The notes beneath the pieces are model-generated. The model worked only from the letters and a program-made list of their open reading frames with translations. It searched no databases and was not told the origin of the DNA. Source: Lingula anatina (Eukaryota > Animalia > Brachiopoda). From it: a stretch of 64,000 nucleotides of DNA. Shown piece after piece: positions 31,114 to 64,000 of this stretch. Position numbers and translations under genes: made by a program. Positions within the stretch are counted from its first letter, which is position 1; every line of letters starts with the position of its first letter. The stretch covers positions 7,006,001 through 7,070,000 of the forward strand of contig CM120643.1 of the NCBI GenBank assembly GCA_051362555.1, in the 5' to 3' direction.

Positions 31114-32804
31114 ACGAATTGCCGTGTATAAGGCTTTGTTTCACGAAGGACAAAGAATAAAAAGCCGCATTTACGAGCCACGGGAATGAGGTGCTTCACA
31201 GATCACGCTAAATAATATGGACATTTCACGGCTCAATTACTGACAACTTCAGTTTTGCATTAATATTCCATTATGTTCATGTTTATATACAATAGATATA
31301 TAGTTCAAACTCCTAGGAATTCGCATTAAAAGTGAACTATTGCTTTAGACGACAACTGCTTTCTAGATCACTTGCAACTTTTACAGATAATGAGCCCGTT
31401 TTAATTAACTTTTATACGTGTAATATTGAGAGTATTCATGTTGATTCACCGTATAGATATTGATAAAAATAGGAGTATATATATATTGATGAACCTTGAA
31501 AGATCTACATTATAGTTGTTAAATGCAATCCGAGCTTCAATATATATACTTCTATATTGAGAGTACTGTATTTAACATTTAATACATCTGGTGGCTACAG
31601 TGGAGGAACGGGGGAAACACCCCAACGTTATTAACATTGCCAGTAAAATAATTGGAAGAGATCTCCCCCAACTGGATGGTATCACTAAAGACAGAATGGA
31701 GAAAACAACAAAATGAATTATTGGGATCCCACCCACCCAGAAAGTTCTCTTTTTAAATTTTTATCCAGCAACAGTAGACTTCTGAGGGCCGTAAGCGGTT
31801 TGAAGTAGTTTTTTGTCTCTCTTTAATTCCACTTTTAGGCCTAGTTCATAATTTTTTATTGTCCAGTGTTTTATCTTAGTTTTATCTCTCAAAGGATAAC
31901 AATTGCTGATATTTATATTAAAATATTTTTATTGGCTGAATAAATTCTTACTTTATCGTATCTTACTTGCACTATTGCTATAGCCATGTTACATGTATTA
32001 TCATAAAAAAGTACTGTAAATAGCGGCAACAAGTTCTTTTTTAACACAATTCCTTTTTTGTCATTTTCAAAATGATTAAAGGGTTTTAAATCTTTTACAA
32101 CACCCTGCTGAGGTACGATTTTTTTATCTCTTTTACACACAGTACGCTATAAAATGTGCTCGAAGTGGCTACATCTCTTTACTTTACGTTTATCATCCCA
32201 AAAACGTTGCCAACGCTCTCAATTCAGGTCTATCCCTTAAAGTAAAATGTTTTATTATTTAAAATATAACATGAGTAAAACCATAACGCTATATTATAAT
32301 CGAAATTCCACCCCCCCCCCCCCCCCTCAATACGCCCCCTTTCTACTGCCCTGGTACCATACAAACTCAGCGTGTGTGGGAGTGCGAGTAGATCAAGTTC
32401 ACGGATAGGATATGCCATGTAAGGGGAGATAGGTTATGTCCTTTTGCGTTTCTTTATTCTGTCAATTTTGAGAAGAAATATCAGTGTCTTGTACTACACT
32501 TAGTCAATATAAATTTTAAAAGGGTCAATTTTCCTTCTTCTATCACGTAATTCGTCAGATGTAATTAAATACAATAAATTCCTACAAAACCCTTACCCCC
32601 TCTTGTGAATGCAATGTGTCGTCAGCGTCTGCTACATCGCTGGATGCTTCGCGCTTCCCGGGAGCTGAACAGTTAACGCGGTCTAAATAATTTTAGGGAG
32701 AGTCAGATGAAATAGAGAGGGACCTTGGCATCTATAAAGTTCTACATGGTGAATCTGGAGATATGGACTAGTTTTACTCTTTTCTGTAAAATTTTGCAAC
32801 ATAC

Positions 32805-33190
32805 TGTACTGGGTTCTTTAATATACCACCGGGTATAAAATTACTTCTAAGGGCTCTAACGCAAACGTGAAGTTCCAAGGTTCGGTACACGATTCCCGAC
32901 TTGAGTTATGCTCAGAGAGAATATCAACGCAACACCACTGTTTCGTTACAAAATCACAAACTGAATTTTATTTGGCTTCGTAGCCTTCTTTATACTTAAA
33001 ACCGGCGTGCCAGACCTTTAAGTTTACGAGTTTAAAGATAAGAAGAGCGTCTAAAGATAAGAGTGATTACTGCGATAGGGTAGAGGGAAAGAGCGTCTAA
33101 AGATAAGAGTAATTACTATAAACTAATTGAGCCGCGTGCACATGCCCGCGACTCTGATCAAAGGAAATTTAAAATATACTGGTCTGAACA
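32805..33190 (-). repeat. 3' LTR (386 bp)
   Basis: No mismatch to 40445-40830 found on base-by-base reading; internal direct repeat aagagcgtctaaagataagagtRattact. Confidence 0.98.
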
Positions 33191-33204
33191 CGCCTTCCGT
33201 TTTT
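33191..33204 (-). other. Polypurine tract
   Basis: Minus strand AAAAACGGAAGGCG immediately precedes TGTTCAG of the 3' LTR. Confidence 0.75.
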
Positions 33205-33393
33205 ACCAGAAAAAAAAAACACATTTTTTTTTTCATTAATTACGTTAAAGACATTCATTCTGGATAGTATTTACAATATATATACATGACGAATCGGCCC
33301 GGGGGAAAACCAGAGATAAAACCCTTTGATTTATGTCTTTGAATAAAGGGAAAAAAAATAACTCTGGAAACCGGGCAATTGACGTTTTATAAT

Positions 33394-33654
33394 TTAAAGT
33401 CTTTGAAGATTGATATTAGAGTCTTTCAATCGTCGGTAAACGGCAGGGTGAAGTTCGAATAATTTCCTCATCGGAGGGTCCACCATAACTTTTGCTGTGG
33501 GGTCACACTTATTTCCGGGATGCAGGGCTGATGGGTCAAATGGATCGAAGCGCTTTCGTTTTACCGGCGGAACGTTAGCGAGGCGAAGTGCAGTGGACAT
33601 CGGCGATGATGGATTTCGGGTGGAACGGTCGCTGTTGGCGGAGTCTACCATCAT
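33394..33654 (-). CDS. Candidate accessory ORF downstream of env (86 aa, basic/Pro-rich)
   Basis: ATG-initiated ORF in a GC-richer island between AT-rich flanks; PVKRKR NLS-like motif; no recognisable domain. Confidence 0.35.
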   Translation of the reverse strand: MMVDSANSDRSTRNPSSPMSTALRLANVPPVKRKRFDPFDPSALHPGNKCDPTAKVMVDPPMRKLFELHPAVYRRLKDSNINLQRL

Positions 33655-33812
33655 CGAGTTTACGGGTCAAAAGTATGGCTACCGTAGGCCCAGGGTCATA
33701 ATCTGAAAAATTCAAAAGTAAAAACGCTCCCCACACCGGGAAATTATCCCTGAAAAATAATCTATACTAAGATATTGTTATAAAATTCATTATAATTGAG
33801 CTCGCCATTAAT

Positions 33813-35855
33813 TTATTTTATTTCGTTGTACATCAACATCCCATCTCGCTGTGGGGTGTACAACGCCTGAAGTGGGCTTGGTCCAGAGTTTGCGGTCATT
33901 TTGTTCCTAGGGATAAATTGAATTTCATTAGGTGCCGAGTCCTTAATTAGGGTGGCAGATTCCGGTTCTGTTTCTATGGTAATTGGTCTCGGCTTCGATC
34001 TTCCCTGAAATTTCTTCAAACATTTAGTTAGCCACCATTTCCGTATAATTATGATAACTATTCCAATGACAATCACAATTAAAGCAAAAGTGCCCAAATA
34101 ACCCCACACATTACTAGAATCTGGTATAAAATCTTCCCAAAGGCTTTTGTCATTCCACGTAATTTGTTTTAAAGGGACGGTCGATTGGAGGGCTAGGTCT
34201 TTCTGATTTAAGTTTTTCAACAGTTTGAGAGCGTCGTTTTCGCGTATCGTATCGGTTAAATTTAATCCTTTAGAGAAATTTAATTGAATAGGGTGGATTT
34301 CGATTTTCCCAATTTGGTGAACTACGCCGGGTAAAATATAATTATCCCCCTGAATTTCGCATCCGTTTTCTACATTTAATAAATAAGTTCCGGGTCGAAT
34401 TTTCACAGAATGTTCTACCGTATTGTCGCATCTCGTGTACAAAGTCTCCCCCCAAGTAACAATAACATATTGTCCCGGTTTAATTTCTTTGGCAAAGCCT
34501 TTGTCTAAACTTTTGGAGATTTTAATTTCACATGCTTCCCTATGTTTTTCATCCCCTGCGATTATTGCCCGTTCGCATTTTTGACCAGTTTTATAAAGGG
34601 GTCCGGAACTACAAACCACAGGATTTTCGCCTGCACAATTTTGAGGAAAAAATATTTGTCCCGTTTTTGGAAATAAACCTATCATTTCATGGTCCAATTG
34701 GACATGTGCCGAAAGTCCGCTTGAATTGTAGGGGACGGGGAAAGTCAAAACGTTATGAAGCCAATACTGTACGCTACTCACGAGGGGTAATTCCACCTTA
34801 TAAATTAGGGTATCGACATCGTGAATGGGAGATACTGGCATGTAACGGTAATACCAGGTGAGATCTACCATGGGTTTTAATTGTTTCCCCCGTACTGCAA
34901 CGGTAACAATCTCGCGAAGCTTCCTCGGTGGAAGTAATAATTCGGTTAATCTCCCTAATTCTAACGACATTCTTTGCCTGTTGTATCGGTCCAAAAGCAA
35001 AATTTGGTGATCGATTAATTTTTCAAAATTGCTTACCGCTCGCTCTACGTTAAATGAGACCATTAATTTCGTTAGACTTTCTTGTGTGTTATTTAAATTT
35101 CGAATTAAACCATTTATCCTGTTAAAAACGCTTTCTTTTAAGTAATGTTGGATGGCGTTTATGTGTCGTATGTTCGTGTTCATGGTGTTTACCGTTTTAT
35201 TTACCACTGAAGCCAAAAATTCTACCCTGTGAGCGATTTCTCGATTTTCTTTCCTTGTCTGTGTAACCAATTTTCTACACTGTTCTACCGATTTGTCCGT
35301 ACTGATACCGAATAAGTAGCTGCTAGCTTCACCGATGAAGTCGAAGAGCCCGCGTTTAGATCGAAACGTCTGGCCAGACCCATTTCGATCCACCTTACTG
35401 GGGGTGTCCGCCACCCAGCCATGCAAGGCTGTCTGCGAGTCCTCTAATTCATAGAAAAGGTGCAAACTACCTATCAGTCTCTTTTTCCATTGTTCTTTTG
35501 CCGCGGTGTTTATGTACCGGCCTCTGTGTGCCCAATTTATTTCCGTTATGATGTCTGTGAATTTAGCCGTAACATTATTTCTGTTTAAACGCGGTTTATC
35601 GATAGTAACTAAAACTGTCCATACAGCTTTAGTTATTTGTAACTGCTGCCTCTGAGTAATTAAAACTCCATCAGGTAGCTGATTTAATTCGGCCTGTGCC
35701 ATTCTAAACATTAAAAGAACCACTAACACCTTTAAAGCGCGCGCGAGGTGATAGGCGTTCGATTTAAAGTTTACATTTCCATTGGCTCGTGGACTACGTC
35801 CGGGCAGTCCGTTTTTCGCGTTTTTATCGGCAGGGATAAATGTTGTTCGCGACAT
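33813..35855 (-). CDS. env: Envelope class I fusion glycoprotein (baculovirus F / errantivirus Env-like), 680 aa
   Basis: Signal-like LKVLVVLLMFRMAQA; furin site RSKR (35352-35363) followed by fusion peptide GLFDFIGEASSYLFG; heptad region; Cys-rich ectodomain; several NxS/T sites; TM WGYLGTFALIVIVIGIVIIII then RKWW; tail ends YNEIK. Confidence 0.93.
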   Translation of the reverse strand: MSRTTFIPADKNAKNGLPGRSPRANGNVNFKSNAYHLARALKVLVVLLMFRMAQAELNQLPDGVLITQRQQLQITKAVWTVLVTIDKPRLNRNNVTAKFTDIITEINWAHRGRYINTAAKEQWKKRLIGSLHLFYELEDSQTALHGWVADTPSKVDRNGSGQTFRSKRGLFDFIGEASSYLFGISTDKSVEQCRKLVTQTRKENREIAHRVEFLASVVNKTVNTMNTNIRHINAIQHYLKESVFNRINGLIRNLNNTQESLTKLMVSFNVERAVSNFEKLIDHQILLLDRYNRQRMSLELGRLTELLLPPRKLREIVTVAVRGKQLKPMVDLTWYYRYMPVSPIHDVDTLIYKVELPLVSSVQYWLHNVLTFPVPYNSSGLSAHVQLDHEMIGLFPKTGQIFFPQNCAGENPVVCSSGPLYKTGQKCERAIIAGDEKHREACEIKISKSLDKGFAKEIKPGQYVIVTWGETLYTRCDNTVEHSVKIRPGTYLLNVENGCEIQGDNYILPGVVHQIGKIEIHPIQLNFSKGLNLTDTIRENDALKLLKNLNQKDLALQSTVPLKQITWNDKSLWEDFIPDSSNVWGYLGTFALIVIVIGIVIIIIRKWWLTKCLKKFQGRSKPRPITIETEPESATLIKDSAPNEIQFIPRNKMTANSGPSPLQALYTPQRDGMLMYNEIK

Positions 35856-38800
35856 CGTCGTTTAAACCGAGTGTTGTGTGAGTGAGTAGGTGTTTCGCGA
35901 AGCGTCCGCGTGTGATGTACACCAATTTCGTTATCGTCACTCTCTGTGTCGGAATGTTCAACGTCCTGATCAGTCGGCACTTGCTCAACTGAATTACTAA
36001 CCTGAGTGGAGACTGGGTTTTCGATCGGCTGAGCGTCCTCGGGTTCCCCAGGGGCTTCGGTGTTGACTGGGTCCTGTACCAGTTGCAACTGACCCACGGC
36101 TGGGACTACTCTCCGTTTATAAACCCGTTTGGCTCTTGGGGCCACGTCGTCCCAAGGCAGTCCCCTATCTACCAGTTTTAATCTCCGACGATTAACCACA
36201 CGCGTTTTCCCTGTTTCTTGATGAGATAACCAAAATGCGTTGCCTCGCGATCTGATTACCGTGTAAACGGGATCGTATCTTGATCCGAACGTGACGCTGT
36301 CTGGAGCTCGAACAATGACGCTATCTCCGACATCTATATGGCCCGCGTTTGCCTTTGCATCATACCGCCTTTTATTTTCCAATCGCGATGCTTGGAGATT
36401 GTCTCTCGCGGCTGTTAACGCGTCCGATAAGTCACTCAAACGCCCCTTTAATGGGTCTGTTTGAGCATTCACGTTTAGCACCTTCGATAAGGGCATTCGA
36501 GGATGGCGGCCATAAACTAGAAAGAAAGGAGAATAATTTGTGGCTGTTGATACGCTTGTCCGATAAGCCAACAAAGCATTTCCGATCGCCGCTTCCCAAT
36601 TCTTTGTGTCGTTGTTCACTAAACGCGCAATCAGGTGTTTGATTGTTTTATTGAAGATTTCCGCGCGCCCGTTGGATTGGGGATTAAACGGAGCTGTTCT
36701 TCTTTGCTCAATACCTACACCGGATAGGTACGCCATGAATTCATGTGCGCTAAATTCGCTACCGCGGTCAGATATTATAATTTCGGGAAATCCGTGAGTA
36801 GGGAAGTATTGGGTAGCTAACGCTGTTTCTACTGCACAAGCAGTTTTATTTTCAATTGGATAGCATTCGGCCCACCCAGACAAATGATCTACAACTGTTA
36901 AACAGTATTTATTCCCCTTTGGTGATGTTACAAATGGACCAATGAGATCCATCCCTACTATTTGAAAAGGGTAGGCTGGCATAGGCATTTCACCTAGCCT
37001 CGGCCTGTCTGGTTTGCTTTTATGTACTAAACATGTGGGGCATCGTTTTATCCAGCGCGTCACTTCCTTTTTCATCCCTTTCCACACATACGCCTCCTTA
37101 ATTCGAGCCATTGTTTTGAAAATTCCCGCATGACCCACGTTTTTGTGACAATTCGAAATTACCTGATCTCGAAATCGCGAAGGTAATAATAAACGCGGAT
37201 AGTCTGGCTCATATTGAGACGGGGCGCGTGTTGAATATAGTAAGCCTTTAAAGACTTCGTAATCTGATTCCTCATCTTTAGCCTCGTCGATTTCCGCGGG
37301 AAATTCCTTCCTTTGCTCGGCTTGAAGATCCTCGATGATCAACCCGTCGGCTTCTATCGGAATGTTAATTGCGGGGTCATTGTCACTAAAAGCCCTTACG
37401 TCAATCCATTCTTGAGTGTCGATTACCGCGACCTGATCTGCATCGGGCAAAATTTCGTGTGGTAATCTACTCAGATAATCCGCGCAAGTGTTCTTTGTCC
37501 CTTTGATATATTCTATTTTCGCGCTGTATTCTGATAAAATCGCACACCAACGCTGTAATCTGCTGTTTTGTACTCGCGATGAGAACATAGATTTGAGCGG
37601 TTTGTGATCAGTATAAATCGTGAAATCTGCACCAAAAAGATAAGGTCGTAGTTTGTTCACCGTGTACATAATTGCATATGCTTCTTTTTCAATTGTTGAA
37701 TAATTTTTCTGCGGTGGGGTAAATTTATGACTGACGTATTGTACAGCCCTATCGCGACCTTTGTCATCTGTCTGCACTAAAACCGCGCCTAGTGCATTGT
37801 CACTCGCGTCTGTGTACAATTTGTAAGGTTTATCAGGCTGCGGGTGAGCCATTACCTTGTTTGATACCAAAAGTTCTTTCAAACGATCAAAACTCCGTTG
37901 GTGTTCGGGCCTCCATTCAAATTTCACGTGTTTCTTTGTCAAATTATGCAAAGGGGCTGCTATTCGCGCAAAATCTGGGATTGTTCGCGCATAGTAATTA
38001 ACCATGCCCAGAAACGATCTCACGTCTTTCGCTCTCTTAGGAGTTGGCAAGTTTTGAATGGGTTTGATTTTATCAGGGTTGCTACGGATTCCGTCTTTGT
38101 TTACCACGTAACCCAGAAGGTGTACCTCGTCTTTGGCCCATTCACACTTTGAGGGTTTTATCTTCAGATCGGCTTTGCGGAACCGGTCGAAGACTTCGCG
38201 CAGGTGTTGTAAATGTTCGCTAAGGCTGTTTGAATACACAACGATATCATCGATGTACGCGAACGCGCATTTGCCTATTAATCCCGATAAAACGGTATCT
38301 AGTACCTTCTGAAAATGCGGAGGTCCGTTTTTTACCCCAAAAGGCACACGTTTATACTCAAATAATCCGCGATGACAAATAAATGCTGTTTTATGAATGT
38401 CTTCGTCGGCGATTGTGAGTTGTGTGAAACCACTTTTCAAATCTAAGACCGAGTAAATTTTCGCGTTACCCAAGTTTTCAAAGATGTCATTTATCAAGGG
38501 TAAAGGGTAGCGGTACTGTTTTGTTCGTTCGTTTAATTTTCTGTAATCCACGCAAAATCTTACAGAATTGTCCGCTTTTGGCACAATGAGGCAGGGTGAA
38601 CTCCACTGACTTTGACTGGGTCGTATTATGTCATTATCAAGGAGGAATTGAATCTCTTTGTCGATAACATCGCGCTTTGTTAGAGGTGTCCGATACGCGT
38701 GCTGTTGCACTGGTTCGTTATCGCCCGTGTCTATAATCATCGGGATTATATCACACTTACCTAAGGGATTCTTATCAGTGCTGAAAACGTCGCGGTATTC

Positions 38801-39267
38801 CTCGATTAATTTATCTATTTCCGCGTTCCCGGACGGCGGCGGCACCTCTATGATCTCAGCGACGCGATCTGGCCCATTGTATTCTTTCAATGGCCAATCT
38901 TTATTGAATAAGCGCATAATTTTTCGCGGGCAATCTACCGTTGCGTGTCCCTCGCGTAGGACATCAATGCCGATAATCATCTCGTGATTAATACCGTCGA
39001 CTACTACCACGTCGCAATACGTCGCGCCATCAATTTTGACTTTCGTTCGTCCTTTTACATCTAGCTTCTCCCCTGAGACGCTAAAAATCTCGTTTGTTTT
39101 CTCCAGCACCGTTCTTCTTCCCGTGGCTTCGCACACTTTTTTGAAAATGTCGAGGCGAAGGCAGGTACAGCATGCACCAGAATCAATCAGGGCCCTACAC
39201 CGTACTCCACTAAGACCTAAAACTACAGCTAATCTACTGATTGAGAGTGCCTCTGTACCCGCCACGT
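35771..39267 (-). CDS. pol: Pol polyprotein (protease, RT, RNase H, integrase), made as a Gag-Pol fusion by -1 frameshift
   Basis: ALIDSGA protease; FCVDYRKLN, LDLKSGF, YIDD RT; LYTDASD RNase H; HHCC plus MDLIGPF / ISDRGSEF / NGRAE integrase; Gypsy domain order. Confidence 0.97.
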
Positions 39268-39655
39268 CTAGTTTAAAGACTTCTTATTTTTTAATGTCGA
39301 CAGCTGCCGGCATTCTCTCTTTGAGTGCCCTACTTTGTTACAGTTGTAACAAATCACCGTACCGTCATTCGTCCAGCCAGAATTTCTTTTTGTAAAAGGC
39401 CGTGAATTGTCAAATTGGCGTTGTTTGGTGTGTGGCCGCGGGGAGGGAGTGTTGTATACTCGTGTTTCTATTTTCGCCATTCTTGTTTGTAATTTTTCTA
39501 AACAGTTGGCTGTTTTGTGCATTTGTTCTAGTAGGAGTGTGTTTGTGTCAACCGCAGAGATGTCCATAGGCTCTTCCCGCCTTTCCGATTGTTGCATTTG
39601 TGCTTGATGTGCCAGCACGTTTGTGTGAGGGAAAACTATTTGTTGCTGTTGCGGC

Positions 39656-39686
<31 letters not shown>

Positions 39687-40359
39687 GACCGACGATTTGA
39701 CGGTAAATTTCTCTACCGGAGTCTTCTTGTACGGCCCAGGTCTGGGCTTCTACCAACGTTCTCGGGCGACCCCTCACGAGAAGGTCTTCAGCTAGTCTCT
39801 TATCTAAAAGAGCTCTTATGTACGCGCGAAGAATGGTCCGTTCTGCGTCTTCGTTACGCGGAATTGGGTAGGCCCTGTTGCTGGCCTCCAAAAATCGCCG
39901 ATTAAAAGTAGTTATGCTCTCATAACCCGACTGCGTTATGATTTCTAGTTCCGATTTTAATTTCTCCGGCTCGTGCGGAGAGAGAAAAGACCGTTGAATA
40001 TGCTCTCTTATCGTGGGCCAGACCGTCGCATTCCTATCCGGTTGGGAATTTAAAAACCGTTCTAAATCCCTTCTCAGAGCCCCCCTCGCCGATTTGACGA
40101 CTAACCTAACTACTCCCCCCGGAATATTCCGTAACGTTTCATTCAAGACATCTATTTCATCAATGTAATTTCGTACCTCCGACAGGACATTTCCGTCACA
40201 CGGGCTCACACCCGTGGCAGCCTCGTCTATTTTACTCTGCCTAATAGTACGATGTTGCTTACCTTGCATGTCCGTGACTAATATCTCCAGCGTTTGAACC
40301 AGTCGGTGCATTTCCATTCCGGGCTGGATTGTAATTTCTTGATTGCGTCCCTCGGCCAT
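39268..40359 (-). CDS. gag: Gag (363 aa)
   Basis: Capsid-like helical region, polyQ tract, EPMD motif, CCHC knuckle CYNCNKVGHSKREC; first ORF after the PBS. Confidence 0.93.
39271..39277 (-). promoter_or_regulatory. -1 ribosomal frameshift slippery site U UUA AAC
   Basis: Gag ends TCT TTA AAC TAG; the heptamer is in X XXY YYZ phase and pol is in the -1 frame. Confidence 0.85.
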
Positions 40360-40422
40360 CGTTGATAGTGTGTGCTACGTGTTCAATTCTCCCCGAATAT
40401 AACTAAATCGTTTAGCGGAATC

Positions 40423-40440
40423 GTGTGCGAGCTTTCGCCA
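40423..40440 (-). other. Primer binding site
   Basis: TGGCGAAAGCTCGCACAC begins 4 nt after the 5' LTR; TGG matches tRNA CCA. Cognate tRNA not identified. Confidence 0.75.
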
Positions 40441-40444
40441 AATT

Positions 40445-40830
40445 TGTACTGGGTTCTTTAATATACCACCGGGTATAAAATTACTTCTAAGGGCTCTAAC
40501 GCAAACGTGAAGTTCCAAGGTTCGGTACACGATTCCCGACTTGAGTTATGCTCAGAGAGAATATCAACGCAACACCACTGTTTCGTTACAAAATCACAAA
40601 CTGAATTTTATTTGGCTTCGTAGCCTTCTTTATACTTAAAACCGGCGTGCCAGACCTTTAAGTTTACGAGTTTAAAGATAAGAAGAGCGTCTAAAGATAA
40701 GAGTGATTACTGCGATAGGGTAGAGGGAAAGAGCGTCTAAAGATAAGAGTAATTACTATAAACTAATTGAGCCGCGTGCACATGCCCGCGACTCTGATCA
40801 AAGGAAATTTAAAATATACTGGTCTGAACA
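40445..40830 (-). repeat. 5' LTR (386 bp)
   Basis: Identical to 32805-33190; followed on the minus strand by PBS and gag. Confidence 0.98.
40600..40634 (-). promoter_or_regulatory. LTR core promoter: TATA box, AATAAA and Inr
   Basis: Minus strand TATAAA (40634-40629), AATAAA (40612-40607), TCAGT initiator with A at 40602, 32 nt from the TATA start. Confidence 0.65.
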
Positions 40831-42496
40831 ATACTCTGTTTTTCAGTAGCCCCGTGCATCCAAAATATTTTGCTGGTATCTTGATACATTTTCCACTTCT
40901 GACTCCCCCTAAAACGGTCCATACTAAAAAATCAATAATCGTATGGCATTTTTATACAGGCAATTGACCTACTTTTATACCCATGCAGCTATTGCCGAGT
41001 ATTATGGCTATGGAGTGAAAACGTGATACACGTCTGTGATATAAAAATTATTTCTAATAACATAATTTACAAACAATGTATGTGGATCAAATGTGTCCAG
41101 ATTTGTGAGCAAAGGACAACAATATACTTTTTGAAAATGATGAAAAATTTGAAGACAAACCAAAGTCGGAAAAAAATGCATTTTTTCTCTTATATGCAAA
41201 TTAGGTCCCCTGAAGTAATATAAGACTGGCCGGAAGTGATGTTCATATCAGAGATTTGTAATTATGATTATCTTGATGGTCTTGATGATCTTAATGGTAA
41301 TTCCAAAAATATTATTAGAGTTTTTAGTTGTCATCTGGTGAGAAAGAAATTTTCTGCACTAACACAATCATTCCACAAGTGAAGAATAGATAGTAAACGC
41401 GTTTCAGAGATGCACTGCAGACGTCACTGCTTTTGGGTGAAAATTACACGCGATATTAGGTTATAATTATGATATATAGGTAAAAAAAACTGCTTGTCTA
41501 ATGTTTTCAAGTGAGTGGACATGGATATAAGCAAACCATTAAATTTTGACTGCATTTCTATTTATTTGTGTTCGACAAGGGTGAATTTTATTGGGATATT
41601 CTCTCTCTCCCTCTAGTCTCTCACTTTTTTTAAAGCTAATATTACAGAGAAAACCGAGTGAAAAAATAATAACTATAACAGTCAAAATAATCAGAAGTAA
41701 AAAGATTTTAGAGTTAAAAATCTTTTGGCCACTATAGTTTCTCGTCGTAGAAGTTCACGGGGGAAATTTTTAAGACATCTTTTAATTGCATTCCGAGATG
41801 TATTTTTCAAAATTATACACACATATTTCAGCTTGTCTTTCTCCATTTTAACAAATATCATTTCTATAAATATCAAAACGATACAAAGACATTATTACCA
41901 CACAATGAAATGGCTCCTCATTTCTCATGATGGCACTCTCTCCATGCTCTGCGGTCCGCATACTTATTGCAAAACAGTCATTGAGTGTGTTCCCTTACAA
42001 TCACGAATTACTCAATAAATTCATTAAGCTGCCTTTTACCATCTTTAAGAAAATTGATATAATTGGCCCTCATTATATGTGCCACCCATTCCAAGCGCGC
42101 ACACACTCACACATACACAAATCCTCGCACACACATTTTCTAATTTTTATATTCTTTTAACAAATTTAAGTACTCAAATTATGTTAGATTTTACATCAAT
42201 TCCCAAATATCATTTCCCATACTTAGACATACACTACTTTAAAAAGATGTCCGTATTGTCATAACAAAATACGACTGATAAATTATTCCAAGAGCTTTGC
42301 GGTTTATAGAGCTTTATTTCGAAGGAATCTACATGTATTGCGATAGAATACAGTTCAAAGCGGGTCCAACCATTGTAGTTCGCATCTTCAAATTAATGAC
42401 AAAATTCCCACATTATAAGTGGACTGTCCATGTGCAGGTTGTGTCAACAGATTTAGTCAGCCAGTGAGTACACACTGCTTTTACACGGGTTACTTT

Positions 42497-43733
42497 AGCC
42501 TCGGTCACAACCGGACGCATGGATTTTAGGATCGCACGTCCCCTACGAATTTTGGGCGCAGTGGAGGCCGTGGAGGCCGTAGAGGTAGAGGAAAGGTTTC
42601 AATGAAAAGGTGCAAGTTTGCCTTGCGAATCGGAGGGGCCACGTGATATGTTCTTTCAAGCTAGTTGCGAATTGCCAGGTGCGATGGCCGTGGCAACTGT
42701 ACTCGTTTCTTGAGTTTCTATTCCTTCCTGCGTACGTGGCACGCACTCACCACTAACGAAGAGAATGCAACGCACGGCGAATGTAGTTCCCTTAAGAGTC
42801 ACTTTTGCTTCACACTTGTCTCAAACGAGGCAAAACTGACGTACTGACGGTGTCCGTCAGTTTTGCCTCGTGTTCTCCCCTTCTTTCTTCGTCCTCCTCT
42901 CTTCTTTTCTGCTCTCTATGCTTTTTTCTCTTGCCTTTTGGAGGCATACAGGGTATAAGAAGTTGAATCGAGCAAAATTTCAGTTTTGAAAATTGTTTTG
43001 CACGTTGCACAGTCGACGTTCTTTGGCGAGACACGATCGTGCGTCGTAAGGATCCTTTTAGGGAGCATTCACATCGAGAAGAACCGAGGTCTAGTAAGGC
43101 CGCGACCTAAAATGGCGGACCTACATGAAAGGAAGACCGCTAATCTTTTAATGATCTCTCCACCTCTCACACGCCCCCCACGCGTTGTCCCTCGACCGGT
43201 TGGATTGAGCTGAATTTTAATAACTGTGCTCCTGCAGGGACGACGCGTGGTGAGGATTAACAGGATGAGCGGTCTTCCTTTCATGTAGGTCCGCCATATT
43301 TAGGTCGCGGCATTACTAGACCTCGGCTCTTCTCGATGTGAATGCTCCCTTATACTCCAGGCGTGAGGGTGAAGCACGTGCGACGCATTCCTGGTGTGAT
43401 TTCGACTTTGTTTGTTAGCTGTGAGGGCGTGCGCCGTACTCAACAATCAAAAGGCACTTGCTCCTTCATTGATTGCTACGTGCGTCTTGGACCACGCACG
43501 TCTCACTGGCGAACTCCTTGTGAACTTGCGAGGTGAGCAAGTCACGCTTGCGGCCTCGCTGTTCGCAGGTTATTCGTAGAATCTTTCGGACATGTCCAAT
43601 ATCCTCCGTGCGTGCTTACGGGCTGTCTGCGAACTCGAAATTTCGTAAGGAGGACTTGCGTGGGACGTGAGATTCTGCGCAAAATTTGGACGCAAACAGC
43701 CCATAAGAGCCCGTACGGCCTGTGACCGAGGCT
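42497..43733. mobile_element. Non-autonomous TIR element (Harbinger-like termini)
   Basis: AGCCTCGGTCACA / TGTGACCGAGGCT termini; GC-richer than flanks; TSD not clean. Confidence 0.6.
43061..43349. mobile_element. Nested PIF/Harbinger MITE with ~90-bp TIRs
   Basis: GGGAGCATTCACATCGAGAAGA... / ...TCTTCTCGATGTGAATGCTCCC, flanked by TTA at 43058-43060 and 43350-43352. Confidence 0.88.
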
Positions 43734-45293
43734 CAAGGTACTTCACTTCCCTAGCAACTGTTGCTAAGCAACCCTTTGAAATTTTTGGCACTACCCTTAG
43801 AAATGATCAGCATAGTCCAAGGAACATTTGTGCTAAGTTTCATGCTTTTTCCACCTTCTGAGTAATTTTTACAGCAATCACATGTAATTATAGGTAAATT
43901 TCCTTGCATGGTTTCCGCACGTTCGAACACTCAAAGCGAAGGCTAGATTTTGCGTTTTAGAGATGATTTCAAACGCCGATTTTATGCCGATTTATGATTG
44001 AAATGATGTTAAATCGCATTTCTACGGAAATATTAAACCTTCAGGATTTTACAGTTATATGAATAATAACAAAATAGTACATGGTAAATGGTAAAGTTAC
44101 AAGCAATAAAAATGTTACATTACAGAAAGAAGTTGGAGTAGTTTTTACATGCTATTTTTCATTTACATTTTAATACCATACCTTGTTCAGATACCTAGAT
44201 TTATCTGCAAAGTTAACGAGGGTAATGTCTTGTCAACATGCTTGCGTCATTGCCAAGAAGACGGCTGAGGGATTATCTTCAGCACTCGAACCTGCTGTAT
44301 CTTGTTCGACATGACACCTTATTAGATACTCAGGAAGGTTCTCCTATTGCGGTATTATCACCCTCGACAAGAATATTTTGCCGGAAACAGGAATGTGATC
44401 TATCACCTGATCTATGTAATTAATGTAATGTTATCTCTGTGCTAGACTGGTGGACGTTAAAAGGTCCACAAAGTTCATTATTATTATAATATTGTCTAAA
44501 AGGTCGTTTTACCACTTCTTGTTTTCTGTAATGCAGTTTGGTTGTTATTCACCTATAGGGGAAGTATCAACAGGTGCTTGTTTTTTATTTCCGGTGTATT
44601 TATTCCATCATGAATGACAAGATGAAAAACAAATGGTCACATAAATAATGACTGATGGTTTTCCTTCCAGTTGGTGTCCCTTTCGGCTGACACAATGATC
44701 GATAGATAATTTTAATAAGATCTAATACGATGACTGAGCACTTGGTCCATAAACTTCCTTTACACATGGTTGGTGTTCAAATCATAATGAAAATTATGCT
44801 CTCTAAACGTGGAAATCAAATAGATGCCAATTCTAGGATGTACAAGTTACATTTCTGTAAAGGGAGCATAGGGCCTAATTGCGAAATTCGCAACCCTCCG
44901 TTTTTTAAAACGTATTTCATCCCCTCCATTTTTTAAAACGAATTTAATCTCAAGTAACATTGCATGCATAAAGACAGAGGGAACAGAGACTGCCTGCTAG
45001 CCAAACAATATTTTGATTTTGTCACTGAAAAACAACTGAGAATATTTTCTGATACAAACACTCCTCAATATTCTTCTTCTCTTTCAGGGAAAACGCCCAG
45101 TGCAGATTCAGACATGACGTATTGACATAACAACCAATGATATTCTTTCACTTGTATATACTGGTATATCTATATTTTGGTATATCTATATATATATATT
45201 TTGCTAAACGAAACGGGAAGCAGATATCTACATTTCAGCTATTAAGCAAACCAAATATCAGAGTTGACTTTAGTTGCGTTGGAGAGATACAAA

Positions 45294-46388
45294 ATGCTGA
45301 ACTATTCAGCTAAAGATTTTATAACAGAGGACGCCAACATGACGCTCAACAAAACGTATACGGTGGCTTCAGCGTGCACGGATCTGGTATCATGCCTGCC
45401 TTTCATCACAGTGGAAGTCATCTTGTTAGTTGCGACGATTGTTGGCAACATCATTTTCATTGCAGCATTTGCAAAGTTTAAGGAACTTCGAGAGCCAACA
45501 AACTATATCTTGATGAGTCTCTCAATTACAGATCTAGTCACTGGCCTCGTTGCCATGCCGATTCACATAGTCACTGTGTATTTCGTTGACAACTTACCCG
45601 GGTTACGTCATCTCGCATCCGAAAAATATTTTTGTCTGTTTAAGACTGCCACTGGATCCGGACTGATACTTATATCACTTTTTCACCAAACATTAATCGC
45701 ATTTGACAGATACTTTAAGATCTGTCGACATGTCCAGCACGTAAAACTATTTAACAAAAAGAGACTGACCTCGGCCATAGTCTTTACATGGCTGTACGGG
45801 TTGGCCCTCTCCATCCCTCCTTTGTTTGGCTGGAATGATTGGTCCCCAGATAAAGAATGCAGGGGTAATATAGTCCATCCAAAACACATGCGATTCTTGG
45901 TGACGCCGCACCTGCCAATCTGCCTCCTGATAACATTCGGGTGTTATTGCGCCATATTTCGACGCGTCCGGCAGCAAAGACAGAAAATTGGAGTGAACCG
46001 CATTCAGATGAATATGCCAGGTACCTCCACCGCGAAGACAGAAAACCAGACCAAACAGGAGAGAGAAGAATTTCGAGGAGGAAAAGCCCTGTCTGTCAAA
46101 CCTGAGGAATCCAACTCGAAAGGATCATTAGATGAAATGCAAGTCAAAGTGGCAAAGATGACTGCCATAATAGTAGGTACGTTTACTTTGTTATTTATTC
46201 CTTATACGCTTCTGTCAGCGTTTGATGGATACATTGTACACAATAGAGTGACCTTTCATATTATTTTTAACATTTCAATCGAACTGTTGATGCTAAGTTC
46301 AGTCACTAATCCCTTGATTTACGGAATTTTGAACAAACGTGTGGGAAAGTTTATGATTGGGGCATGCCAATGCAAGCCCGTAGAATAA
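45294..46388 (+). CDS. Intronless class A (rhodopsin-like) orphan GPCR, 364 aa
   Basis: Seven hydrophobic segments with GN (TM1), LSITD (TM2), C3.25 and DRY (TM3), W (TM4), FTLLFIPY (TM6), NPLIY (TM7); first ATG 45294; upstream acceptor ctttcag at 45087 suggests a 5'UTR intron. Confidence 0.92.
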   Translation: MLNYSAKDFITEDANMTLNKTYTVASACTDLVSCLPFITVEVILLVATIVGNIIFIAAFAKFKELREPTNYILMSLSITDLVTGLVAMPIHIVTVYFVDNLPGLRHLASEKYFCLFKTATGSGLILISLFHQTLIAFDRYFKICRHVQHVKLFNKKRLTSAIVFTWLYGLALSIPPLFGWNDWSPDKECRGNIVHPKHMRFLVTPHLPICLLITFGCYCAIFRRVRQQRQKIGVNRIQMNMPGTSTAKTENQTKQEREEFRGGKALSVKPEESNSKGSLDEMQVKVAKMTAIIVGTFTLLFIPYTLLSAFDGYIVHNRVTFHIIFNISIELLMLSSVTNPLIYGILNKRVGKFMIGACQCKPVE

Positions 46389-62715: not shown

Positions 62716-64000
62716 TTATTTCAATTCCTCCTTCAAAAACTTGTACAAACTTGCAGATTTTTCTTTCACCATAAAAAAAGGCACCTCTAGAACCTCTCTG
62801 TATCCTGCTTGATATAGGAAGTGTTTCTTTGCCTTTGTTTCACCTGGTGAATAAAGAAAACCAAATCAATGTTAACATAAAACATATTTCAATGTCTTAC
62901 TGAGAGGAAATGTGTGCCTGAATGCACTGAAATATTAATATTTACACAAAGAAAACCTGTTCATGTCAAAACTTTATCACATAGACATATAACACATTCA
63001 AATTAAGATGGCCTCTGTTTAAAGCGTGAAATAATACAATGTTTACTGGGAAATGTATACCACAACATGTTGAGATTTAGTGAGGCAGTGGAGTATAGTA
63101 CTTATATTTGACATACATACAACATCAGTTGTCTACATTACTCTCTACTGATACATCATTGTTGTCCTTTGTAACCTATTGTTATTCTCAGTACCCCATT
63201 GTTGTTATGGCTATATAAGCTGGCCCTCAGTGGGTAACCAGCAAGTATATAGGAAAAATAGGCTCAATACACTGAAGTCAAGCTTGTGTTAGTCATAACC
63301 CAAAGCTGCTTAGGCAGCAGGGTGGGCTTACTAAAGCCGTCTCTACATACAACAACCACATTTTTAACTCACCAGTTAACATTGGCTTGTTGATAAAGAA
63401 ATCTTCATCATGAAGAATCCACACTGCTATTCTTCTCCATCTTTCTGGCAAGGCAGACATGTTTTCCATTTTGAGGAACCCATTTTCATCAAAGACTCTG
63501 GGCACCAGCTTCATGTCTACAGGCTCATTCAATTCATTCAAACAAAACTCCACAACAGGACGATATATGGGAAGTACTGGTGTGACTCTTGCCATGTGGG
63601 GACCACCAAGAATCATTTGTACAGCCTCTAAAACAGCCTTCTTTGAGGAATGCTGGCATATATTTTTCAATTTCTCTGTAAAGTATTGAATACCATCTGC
63701 TTTGTAAAGGCTTGGTGGAATCTTCTTAACATACTTGTCAATTTGCTCCATTTCTAACCTTCCACACAACTCCACAATATTTATACACCCTTGAGGCTTC
63801 ATGACATTTAATGATTCCTCCTTCATCAGACCAGACTGGAAACAACTATCAAGTATTCCACTGAAGACTTCATAATAGCCATGATGGCGCATCAAATCAC
63901 AAGTAATGGAAAGCAATTTGAAAGGGGGGATATTTCTCCCTTGGTTTTGCACTAAATCAACCACTTTTTTTAAAAAAGCAATATTTGTATTGCAATCCAT
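62716..64000 (-). CDS. 3' end of a FAST kinase domain (FASTKD)-like gene with C-terminal RAP domain (two exons, 5' part outside window)
   Basis: Exon 64000-63373 ends ...RRIAVWILHDEDFFINKPMLT G|GTGAGT; acceptor ttattcaccag at 62844; phase-1 last exon 62843-62716 reads GETKAKKHFLYQAGYREVLEVPFF...LK*, completing a RAP-type motif. Confidence 0.75.

What the first reader, a model, noticed from the sequence alone, without database searches (positions are those of the whole stretch)
32805..40830. Intact env-bearing Gypsy element: a candidate infectious invertebrate endogenous retrovirus
Seen: complete LTR-gag-pol-env-LTR with no stops or frameshift lesions, all catalytic motifs, and an Env with signal region, RSKR furin site, GLFDFIG..LFG fusion peptide, heptads, Cys-rich domain, TM anchor and a YNEI (YxxPhi-type) tail motif. 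Established: this layout matches baculovirus F proteins and insect errantivirus Env (Drosophila gypsy, ZAM). Inference: the surrounding repeats look like those of a non-insect aquatic invertebrate, where intact env-carrying elements are far less characterised, so this may be a new lineage able to move between cells or hosts.
Basis: partly seen in the sequence, partly recalled or inferred. Interest (0 to 1): 0.88.

Follow-up and report, generated by a model that had tools for sequence, protein, structure and literature searches.

The report
Intact retrovirus-like element in lamp shell
A complete, recently inserted retrovirus-like jumping gene, likely from a lamp shell (brachiopod), carries an intact envelope gene whose protein is predicted to fuse membranes and would likely let it pass between cells; such elements are already described in most animal groups, and this one likely fills the brachiopod gap.

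Summary
This is an 8,026-bp minus-strand LTR-gag-pol-env-LTR element with identical 386-bp LTRs, a 4-bp target-site duplication, open frames and all catalytic residues. Env matches Pfam Baculo_F (E 2e-17), and its model matches pneumo/paramyxovirus F. The insertion is polymorphic (an empty-site contig exists), the family is weakly transcribed, and differences among copies lean synonymous in pol and env. The host is likely the brachiopod Lingula.

The class is not new. Chary & Hayashi (eLife 2026) list 1,512 such 'errantiviruses', including annelid and mollusc F-type elements, and this Pol has their 'ancient errantivirus' mini-domain. The env profile finds 576 clusters at E<=1e-30. What is new is the host: their table has no brachiopod element, and Lingula anatina was scored 'no intact copies'. 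Nothing points to host jumping: the nearest env (65%) is Lingula's own, and all others are below 40%. The YNEI tail motif is not conserved. Infectivity and env splicing are untested. An 86-codon frame after env is an unresolved lead; the scan noted a similar layout in another genome. Verdict: new member of a known kind.

The parts
40445..40830 (-). 5' LTR, 386 bp; TATA-like box at 40634, AATAAA at 40612, initiator-like TCAGTT at 40604 (predicted start about 40602); 46-bp internal tandem duplication
   Evidence: promoter role predicted from motifs, start not seen in reads
40429..40440 (-). primer-binding-site position (TGGCG...), 4 nt after the LTR; primer tRNA not identified
   Evidence: no 12-mer in the eLife tRNA list matched (compared by eye)
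40357..40602 (-). predicted 5' leader; U5 pairs in a long stem with sequence just downstream of the PBS
   Evidence: -74.8 kcal/mol, z -4.36, 0 of 200 shuffles as stable
39268..40359 (-). gag, 363 aa, Retrotrans_gag + poly-Gln tract + CCHC zinc knuckle
39271..39277 (-). slippery heptamer U-UUA-AAC just before the gag stop; predicted -1 frameshift into pol
   Evidence: no stable downstream hairpin (-11.8 vs shuffle mean -14.6), pseudoknots not tested
35771..39283 (-). pol, 1,170 codons: protease, RT, RNase H, mini-domain bridge, integrase (HHCC, D-D35-E); no chromodomain hit
33813..35855 (-). env, 680 aa, F-type class I fusogen (predicted); its start overlaps the end of pol
35298..35363 (-). 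furin-type site RSKR (env 165-168) and predicted fusion peptide (169-186)
   Evidence: R-x-K/R-R in 120 of 128 near-full-length homologues
34026..34106 (-). predicted Env transmembrane anchor (about residues 584-610)
33394..33702 (-). GC-rich (50%) block after env, with a strong splice-acceptor-like site (AG at 33704-33703) and an 86-codon frame (33654-33394); coding status unresolved
   Evidence: no Pfam hit; no joint in reads
33191..33207 (-). purine-rich tract abutting the 3' LTR (predicted polypurine tract)
32805..33190 (-). 3' LTR, identical to the 5' LTR
32801..32804 (.). target-site duplication ATAC, left copy (right copy 40831-40834)
   Evidence: an empty-site contig skips 8,030 = 8,026 + 4 nt

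Best explanation
This is an intact, recently inserted Ty3/gypsy retrotransposon with an F-type envelope gene (an 'ancient errantivirus' in the operational sense of Chary & Hayashi), likely of the brachiopod Lingula, whose Env is predicted to be a furin-activated membrane-fusion protein that would likely carry its particles from one host cell into another. Shown: structure, open frames, catalytic residues, target-site duplication, presence/absence of the insertion between samples, and low-level RNA from the family. Inferred from established retroelement biology: transcription from the TATA/initiator in the 5' LTR; Gag, plus Gag-Pol by -1 frameshift at U-UUA-AAC; reverse transcription in the particle; integration with a 4-bp duplication. 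Inferred by analogy with Drosophila errantiviruses and viral F proteins: Env is made from a subgenomic (likely spliced) RNA, enters the secretory pathway, is cut at RSKR, trimerises and inserts its fusion peptide into a target membrane. The most likely route is soma to germ line within one animal, followed by vertical inheritance. My odds: classification about 0.9; Env still fusion-competent and used for cell-to-cell spread about 0.6.
For: Structure and TSD. Pol is nearest to Ty3 among solved structures (E 3e-111, against about 1e-33 for retroviral Pol). The bridge model (pLDDT 87) shows one RNase H, then helices plus three short strands, as the paper describes the mini-domain. Env: Baculo_F; Foldseek top PDB hits are RSV/paramyxovirus F (E 7e-10) and the top viral hits are baculovirus F (E 1e-20); VIA Z 11.3 to post-fusion RSV F over 321 residues, rmsd 20. 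Recent activity: identical LTRs, and a DNA run from another study holds the empty site. RNA reads map in all 7 RNA runs laid (4 to 141 reads); in X15, 124 reads cover gag, pol and env almost all in one orientation. Listed differences among copies are synonymous in 10 of 15 pol and 9 of 18 env sites, against 22-28% expected (P 0.0003-0.002 and 0.007-0.04), with none creating a stop. Old pol-env partnership: three near pol relatives share contig lengths with related env proteins, and loci L001 and L002 have integrase directly upstream of a 32% identical env. Host: a neighbouring gene's only hit is Lingula anatina, 64% over 223 aa.
Against: No fusion or infection data exist for this element. The eLife authors state that env-based transmission remains elusive outside Drosophila. 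No env splice joint appeared in 7 RNA runs, at mean depths of about 0-9. Expression is low (at most about 13 reads per million records read), and in three polyA runs many reads over the 3' half of env lie in the opposite orientation and come from diverged copies. The Env model is only moderately confident (pLDDT 61, pTM 0.39, TM-scores 0.2-0.35). The synonymous excess in env is modest and rests on the best-supported subset of differences (40 of 85 and 40 of 68 shown). The primer tRNA was not identified. No tree with named Gypsy clades could be built. The host rests on two protein hits plus unreviewed notes.
Confidence: 0.7

Rival explanations
1. The element multiplies only inside cells, and env is an intact passenger that has not yet decayed or is rarely expressed.
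For: No env splice joint and low RNA depth. A DNA contig shows a copy with 33232-36860 deleted, which removes all of env.
Against: That deletion also removes part of the integrase core, so it is a defective copy, not an env-less active form. Env differences lean synonymous. The furin site and cysteines are kept across homologues only about 27% identical.
Confidence: 0.2
2. It is an infectious agent that moves between individuals or species in sea water and arrived recently by horizontal transfer.
For: Intact fusogen, very young and polymorphic insertion.
Against: Of 21 listed runs, the 10 holders all carry one organism label. The nearest env is Lingula's own at 65%, and none of the other 148 long matches exceeds 40%. 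Diverged copies and a sister family with another LTR are present in the same species' reads, which points to long residence. The eLife study argues for mainly vertical descent.
Confidence: 0.07
3. Env was captured recently from a baculovirus-like DNA virus.
For: Best Pfam and BFVD matches are baculovirus F.
Against: F proteins from 7 viral contigs give weak matches (20-36% over the best segment, E 2e-9 or worse) and fall on the other side of a quick tree (SH-aLRT 90, long branches). Retroelement-type homologues are closer and numerous.
Confidence: 0.02

Closest known systems
'Ancient errantiviruses' with F-type ENV (Chary & Hayashi, eLife 2026, PMC13524379), e.g. the annelid and mollusc elements
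   Same: LTR-gag-pol-env-LTR with open frames; F-type env with furin site and fusion peptide; RNase H followed by a three-strand mini-domain; signs of recent copying; PBS often unassigned (361 of 1,512 in the paper).
   Different: The host phylum is absent from their master table, and Lingula anatina LinAna2.0 was scored 'yes - No intact copies'. Their sequences are not in the supplements I saw, so the nearest element and tree position (A1-A11) are unknown. I saw no small frame after env mentioned in the sections read.
Lingula anatina gene model XP_013404375.1 (LOC106169459, 'uncharacterized protein')
   Same: Env homologue, 65% identical over 529 aa; same furin site, fusion peptide and cysteines; sister in the tree (100).
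   Different: A different family or a congener's version, not this element; its N-terminus does not align and it is not annotated as a retroelement env.
Insect errantiviruses (Drosophila gypsy, ZAM, Idefix; PMC12992720 passages)
   Same: Third ORF is an F-type Env with signal region, furin site, fusion peptide, cysteines and TM anchor; serves as the mechanistic model.
   Different: No pseudo-RNase H in the bridge; non-insect host; CCHC knuckle in Gag (recalled as absent from Drosophila gypsy/ZAM Gag); infectivity and spliced env are shown there but not here.
Baculovirus F and pneumo/paramyxovirus F proteins
   Same: Predicted fold and the cleavage-then-fusion-peptide layout.
   Different: 9-16% identity in structural alignments; encoded here by an LTR retroelement.

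Membership tests
Ty3/gypsy (Metaviridae) | pol order PR-RT-RNase H-IN with intact catalytic residues | tested here: met
Ty3/gypsy (Metaviridae) | Pol closer to Ty3 than to retroviruses or caulimoviruses | tested here: met
   Ty3 E 3e-111; next non-Ty3 entry 7e-57; retroviral Pol about 1e-33 (similarity, not a tree)
Ty3/gypsy (Metaviridae) | TG..CA LTRs and 4-6 bp target-site duplication | tested here: met
Ty3/gypsy (Metaviridae) | tRNA primer-binding site | tested here: inconclusive
   TGGCG at the right place; no match in the paper's 12-mer list; host tRNA genes not available
Errantivirus, operational sense (Chary & Hayashi) | uninterrupted gag, pol and env between LTRs | tested here: met
Errantivirus, operational sense (Chary & Hayashi) | F-type ENV with furin site, fusion peptide, F-like fold and TM anchor | tested here: met
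   model confidence moderate
Errantivirus, operational sense (Chary & Hayashi) | multiple copies >98% identical over the three ORFs (usual, not required) | tested here: inconclusive
   no genome held; one copy in the window; reads and contigs show several variant copies
'Ancient errantivirus' group | RNase H followed by a mini-domain (helices, then three small strands) | tested here: met
   against the description
'Ancient errantivirus' group | position in the RT/connection tree with the reference elements | not testable with these tools
   reference sequences are not held; the supplement parts I saw give coordinates, not ORF sequences
Insect errantiviruses (genus Errantivirus proper) | pseudo-RNase H (five-strand) after RNase H | tested here: not met
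   only three short strands between RNase H and the integrase zinc finger
Insect errantiviruses (genus Errantivirus proper) | env translated from a spliced subgenomic RNA | tested here: inconclusive
   no joint in 7 RNA runs at low depth
Insect errantiviruses (genus Errantivirus proper) | Env-dependent infectivity | not testable with these tools
   needs bench work
Retroviridae | degenerate tether domain followed by a second, active RNase H | tested here: not met
   one RNase H with its catalytic residues directly after RT, and no second one before IN
Troyka | CG..CG termini, 3-bp TSD, no envelope (PMC12440569 passages) | tested here: not met
   TG..CA, 4-bp TSD, env present

The most novel reading that the evidence does not exclude
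A currently active, infectious errantivirus of a brachiopod, the first intact one from that phylum, with a 'complex retrovirus' layout: a fourth, spliced accessory gene in the GC-rich block between env and the 3' LTR. The hints are a strong acceptor at 33703, a consensus donor inside gag at 40262, an 86-codon frame with a basic PPVKRKRF patch, and a 33-nt stretch of it kept in a more distant transcribed relative.
Probability: 0.15. Interest if true: 0.65.

Novelty: new member of a known kind. Interest (0 to 1): 0.33.

Why it matters
Whether env-carrying Gypsy elements are infectious outside Drosophila is open; the eLife survey says so itself. A young, polymorphic, transcribed and fully intact copy is a good subject for asking where env is expressed and whether its protein fuses cells. 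It also likely adds Brachiopoda to the phyla with intact elements, which fits the proposed Precambrian origin. It does not reveal a new class of agent, and hundreds of comparable env clusters exist.

Tried and rejected
Whole-genome copy count: no genome is held. Named RT phylogeny: the 120 listed pol relatives are nearly all unnamed, so none was built. Host from the neighbouring GPCR: the exact sequence is not in the collection and the Atlas could not read it, so species versus congener is left open. Homologue search for the small frame: no Pfam family, no tblastn hit in 9 fetched loci, no look-alike in earlier scan notes; synonymous share 4 of 9, P 0.15-0.23, so inconclusive. Splice joints: none in 7 RNA runs. 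The run index listed no RNA holder, which is not evidence either way. Frameshift stimulator: no hairpin more stable than shuffles. YxxPhi tail motif: rejected as evidence. Rfam and tRNA scans of the window: nothing. Sequence search of Env against the PDB gave only weak hits (best E 0.04, a 'fusion protein'). The env tree is the quick version; the careful search did not finish; P0013 was left out of it. Troyka and Retroviridae were rejected (membership table). Literature searches for a brachiopod errantivirus or an accessory frame after env (supplement search) found no such report; subscription journals and Repbase were not searchable, so a Repbase entry for this family cannot be excluded. No complex prediction was run, since a trimer would be expected from likeness to solved F proteins.
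Full report
Observation. The element spans 32805-40830 on the minus strand. Its two LTRs are 386 of 386 nt identical, begin TG and end CA, and are flanked by ATAC on both sides. Three open frames follow in order: gag (363 aa), pol (1,170 codons) and env (680 aa). Pfam finds Retrotrans_gag and a CCHC knuckle; RT, RNase H and integrase domains, with weak aspartic-protease hits; and Baculo_F for env at E 2.3e-17. Protease DSG, RT YIDD, the four RNase H acidic residues, the integrase HHCC and D-D35-E are present. Gag and pol overlap in the -1 frame with U-UUA-AAC directly before the gag stop. No downstream hairpin beats shuffles, and pseudoknots were not tested.

Envelope. Env has a hydrophobic stretch at 37-55, RSKR at 165-168, a hydrophobic peptide behind it, long predicted helices, a six-cysteine region and a TM segment. 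An AlphaFold2 model from 13 sequences is moderately confident (pLDDT 61, pTM 0.39). Its best matches are RSV and paramyxovirus F in the PDB (E 7e-10) and baculovirus F among viral models (E 1e-20). VIA-align gives Z 11.3 over 321 residues at rmsd 20 to post-fusion RSV F. The Atlas places the Lingula homologue P0001 with Baculo_F clusters (score 0.97). Among 128 near-full-length homologues, 120 keep an R-x-K/R-R site and only 3 have a terminal YxxPhi. The furin site is therefore a family trait, and the YNEI motif is not evidence.

Age and activity. Ten of 21 listed sequencing runs hold the stretch, all under one organism label. Four may be the source of the window; five from two other studies hold 82-85% of its words; one holds 5%. 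In run X9 a contig skips 32801-40830, exactly element plus one duplication, so the insertion is absent from at least one chromosome sampled. RNA reads map in 7 of 7 RNA runs laid (4, 48, 85, 89, 97, 124 and 141 reads from 8-12 million records each; two different likeness thresholds). In X15 they cover gag, pol and env almost all in one orientation, which is sense if the library follows the usual convention. Reads cannot be assigned to this copy. No splice joint was seen. Of the differences shown (40 of 85, 40 of 68), those inside frames are synonymous at 10 of 15 sites in pol, 9 of 18 in env, 3 of 8 in gag and 4 of 9 in the small frame, against 22-28% by chance. That is clear for pol, modest for env and uninformative for the other two.

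Host. The frame at 63293-64000 has one hit among 109 candidates, a Lingula anatina protein at 64%. The best of 13 env hits is also from L. anatina, at 65%. Unreviewed notes on other pieces of this genome say Lingula too. I take the host to be a lingulid brachiopod; the species is not settled.

Relatives. An env profile finds 5,554 clusters at E<=0.001 and 576 at E<=1e-30. Of 156 proteins compared, 149 align over 300 aa or more, with median identity 27%, and only the Lingula one exceeds 40%. Pol relatives reach 52%. In a quick tree of 22 rows, the window env pairs with the Lingula protein (100) and the 7 viral-contig F proteins lie on one side of a branch with support 90 and long branches. This is an old pol-env partnership, with no sign of a recent capture or a recent host jump.

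What is known. Chary & Hayashi (PMC13524379) report 1,512 intact env-carrying Ty3/gypsy elements across most animal phyla and split them into insect and 'ancient' groups. I saw the abstract, word-search passages, sections 7, 8, 14 and 22 whole, the first parts of 5, 6 and 9, word searches of the supplements and the last part of the master table. The ancient group has RNase H plus a mini-domain of helices and three small strands; the insect group has a five-strand pseudo-RNase H. A model of the bridge from 74 sequences (pLDDT 87) shows the mini-domain pattern. The master table has no Brachiopoda or Lingula row, and the genome list marks L. anatina 'yes - No intact copies'. For Drosophila elements, Senti et al. 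(PMC12992720, passages) describe spliced env RNA and the same Env motifs. Troyka (PMC12440569, passages) occurs in Lingulida but has CG termini, a 3-bp duplication and no env. PMC11952523 was seen as a search listing only. Searches found no report of a brachiopod errantivirus. Repbase, subscription journals and the paper's GitHub sequences were not visible and may hold this family.

Mechanism. Shown are the anatomy, the polymorphic insertion and RNA from the family. Inferred from established biology are LTR-driven transcription (TATA at 40634, initiator near 40602, poly(A) signal upstream of the start), frameshifted Gag-Pol, reverse transcription and integration. Inferred by analogy is that Env is cut at RSKR and fuses the particle with another cell, most likely carrying the element from somatic cells into the germ line. 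I put this last step at about 0.6. The authors of the survey note that it is unproven outside Drosophila. The main rival is intracellular copying with env as a passenger (0.2). Spread between species has no support here (0.07).

Open lead. Between env and the 3' LTR lies a 50% GC block inside AT-rich sequence, with a strong acceptor-like site and an 86-codon frame. Fourteen reads of a more distant transcript keep a 33-nt patch of it. An earlier unreviewed note describes a small frame at this position in another genome's elements, but no sequence link was found. No homologue, joint or selection signal supports it yet.

Verdict. A real, intact and young element of a described class, probably the first intact one noted from Brachiopoda. 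New member of a known kind; interest 0.33.

Noticed in passing
window 33394-33704 (-) and 40262: GC-rich block after env with a strong acceptor-like site and an 86-codon frame; a consensus donor lies inside gag. 14 reads in run X17 match only 33522-33554 and run on unlike on both sides, so a more distant transcribed relative keeps this patch.
   Followed up: partly
window 33188-33237 and 40384-40450: Loose read ends in several RNA runs show a sister family with a different LTR that shares the tracts next to the PPT and PBS.
   Followed up: no
window 33300-34700: In three polyA runs of one study, many reads over the 3' half of env lie in the orientation opposite to runs X15 and X17 and differ at several sites. 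This may be antisense transcription of a diverged copy, such as a silencing locus; library strandedness was not verified.
   Followed up: partly
window 33231-36861: A DNA contig of run X9 joins these places: an internally deleted copy lacking env and the end of integrase.
   Followed up: no
window 40357-40602 (-): Unusually stable predicted leader in which U5 pairs with the sequence after a non-canonical PBS (z -4.4); it may bear on priming or packaging.
   Followed up: partly
window 40675-41775: The element sits next to a very high-depth repeat (summed contig depth in the thousands, against about 100 inside the element).
   Followed up: no
window 43060-43350: About 290-bp element with long, 95-96% complementary terminal inverted arms, MITE-like.
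   Followed up: no
window 45246-46388 (+): Single-frame rhodopsin-family GPCR gene, 4.4 kb from the 5' LTR.
   Followed up: partly
window 63293-64000 (-): Open frame without a Pfam family; its only hit among 109 candidates is an uncharacterised Lingula anatina protein, 64% identical.
   Followed up: partly
ranks 7 and 26: The Env model also matches uncharacterised proteins of abalone herpesvirus and ranid herpesvirus 2, hinting at F-type proteins in aquatic herpesviruses.
   Followed up: no
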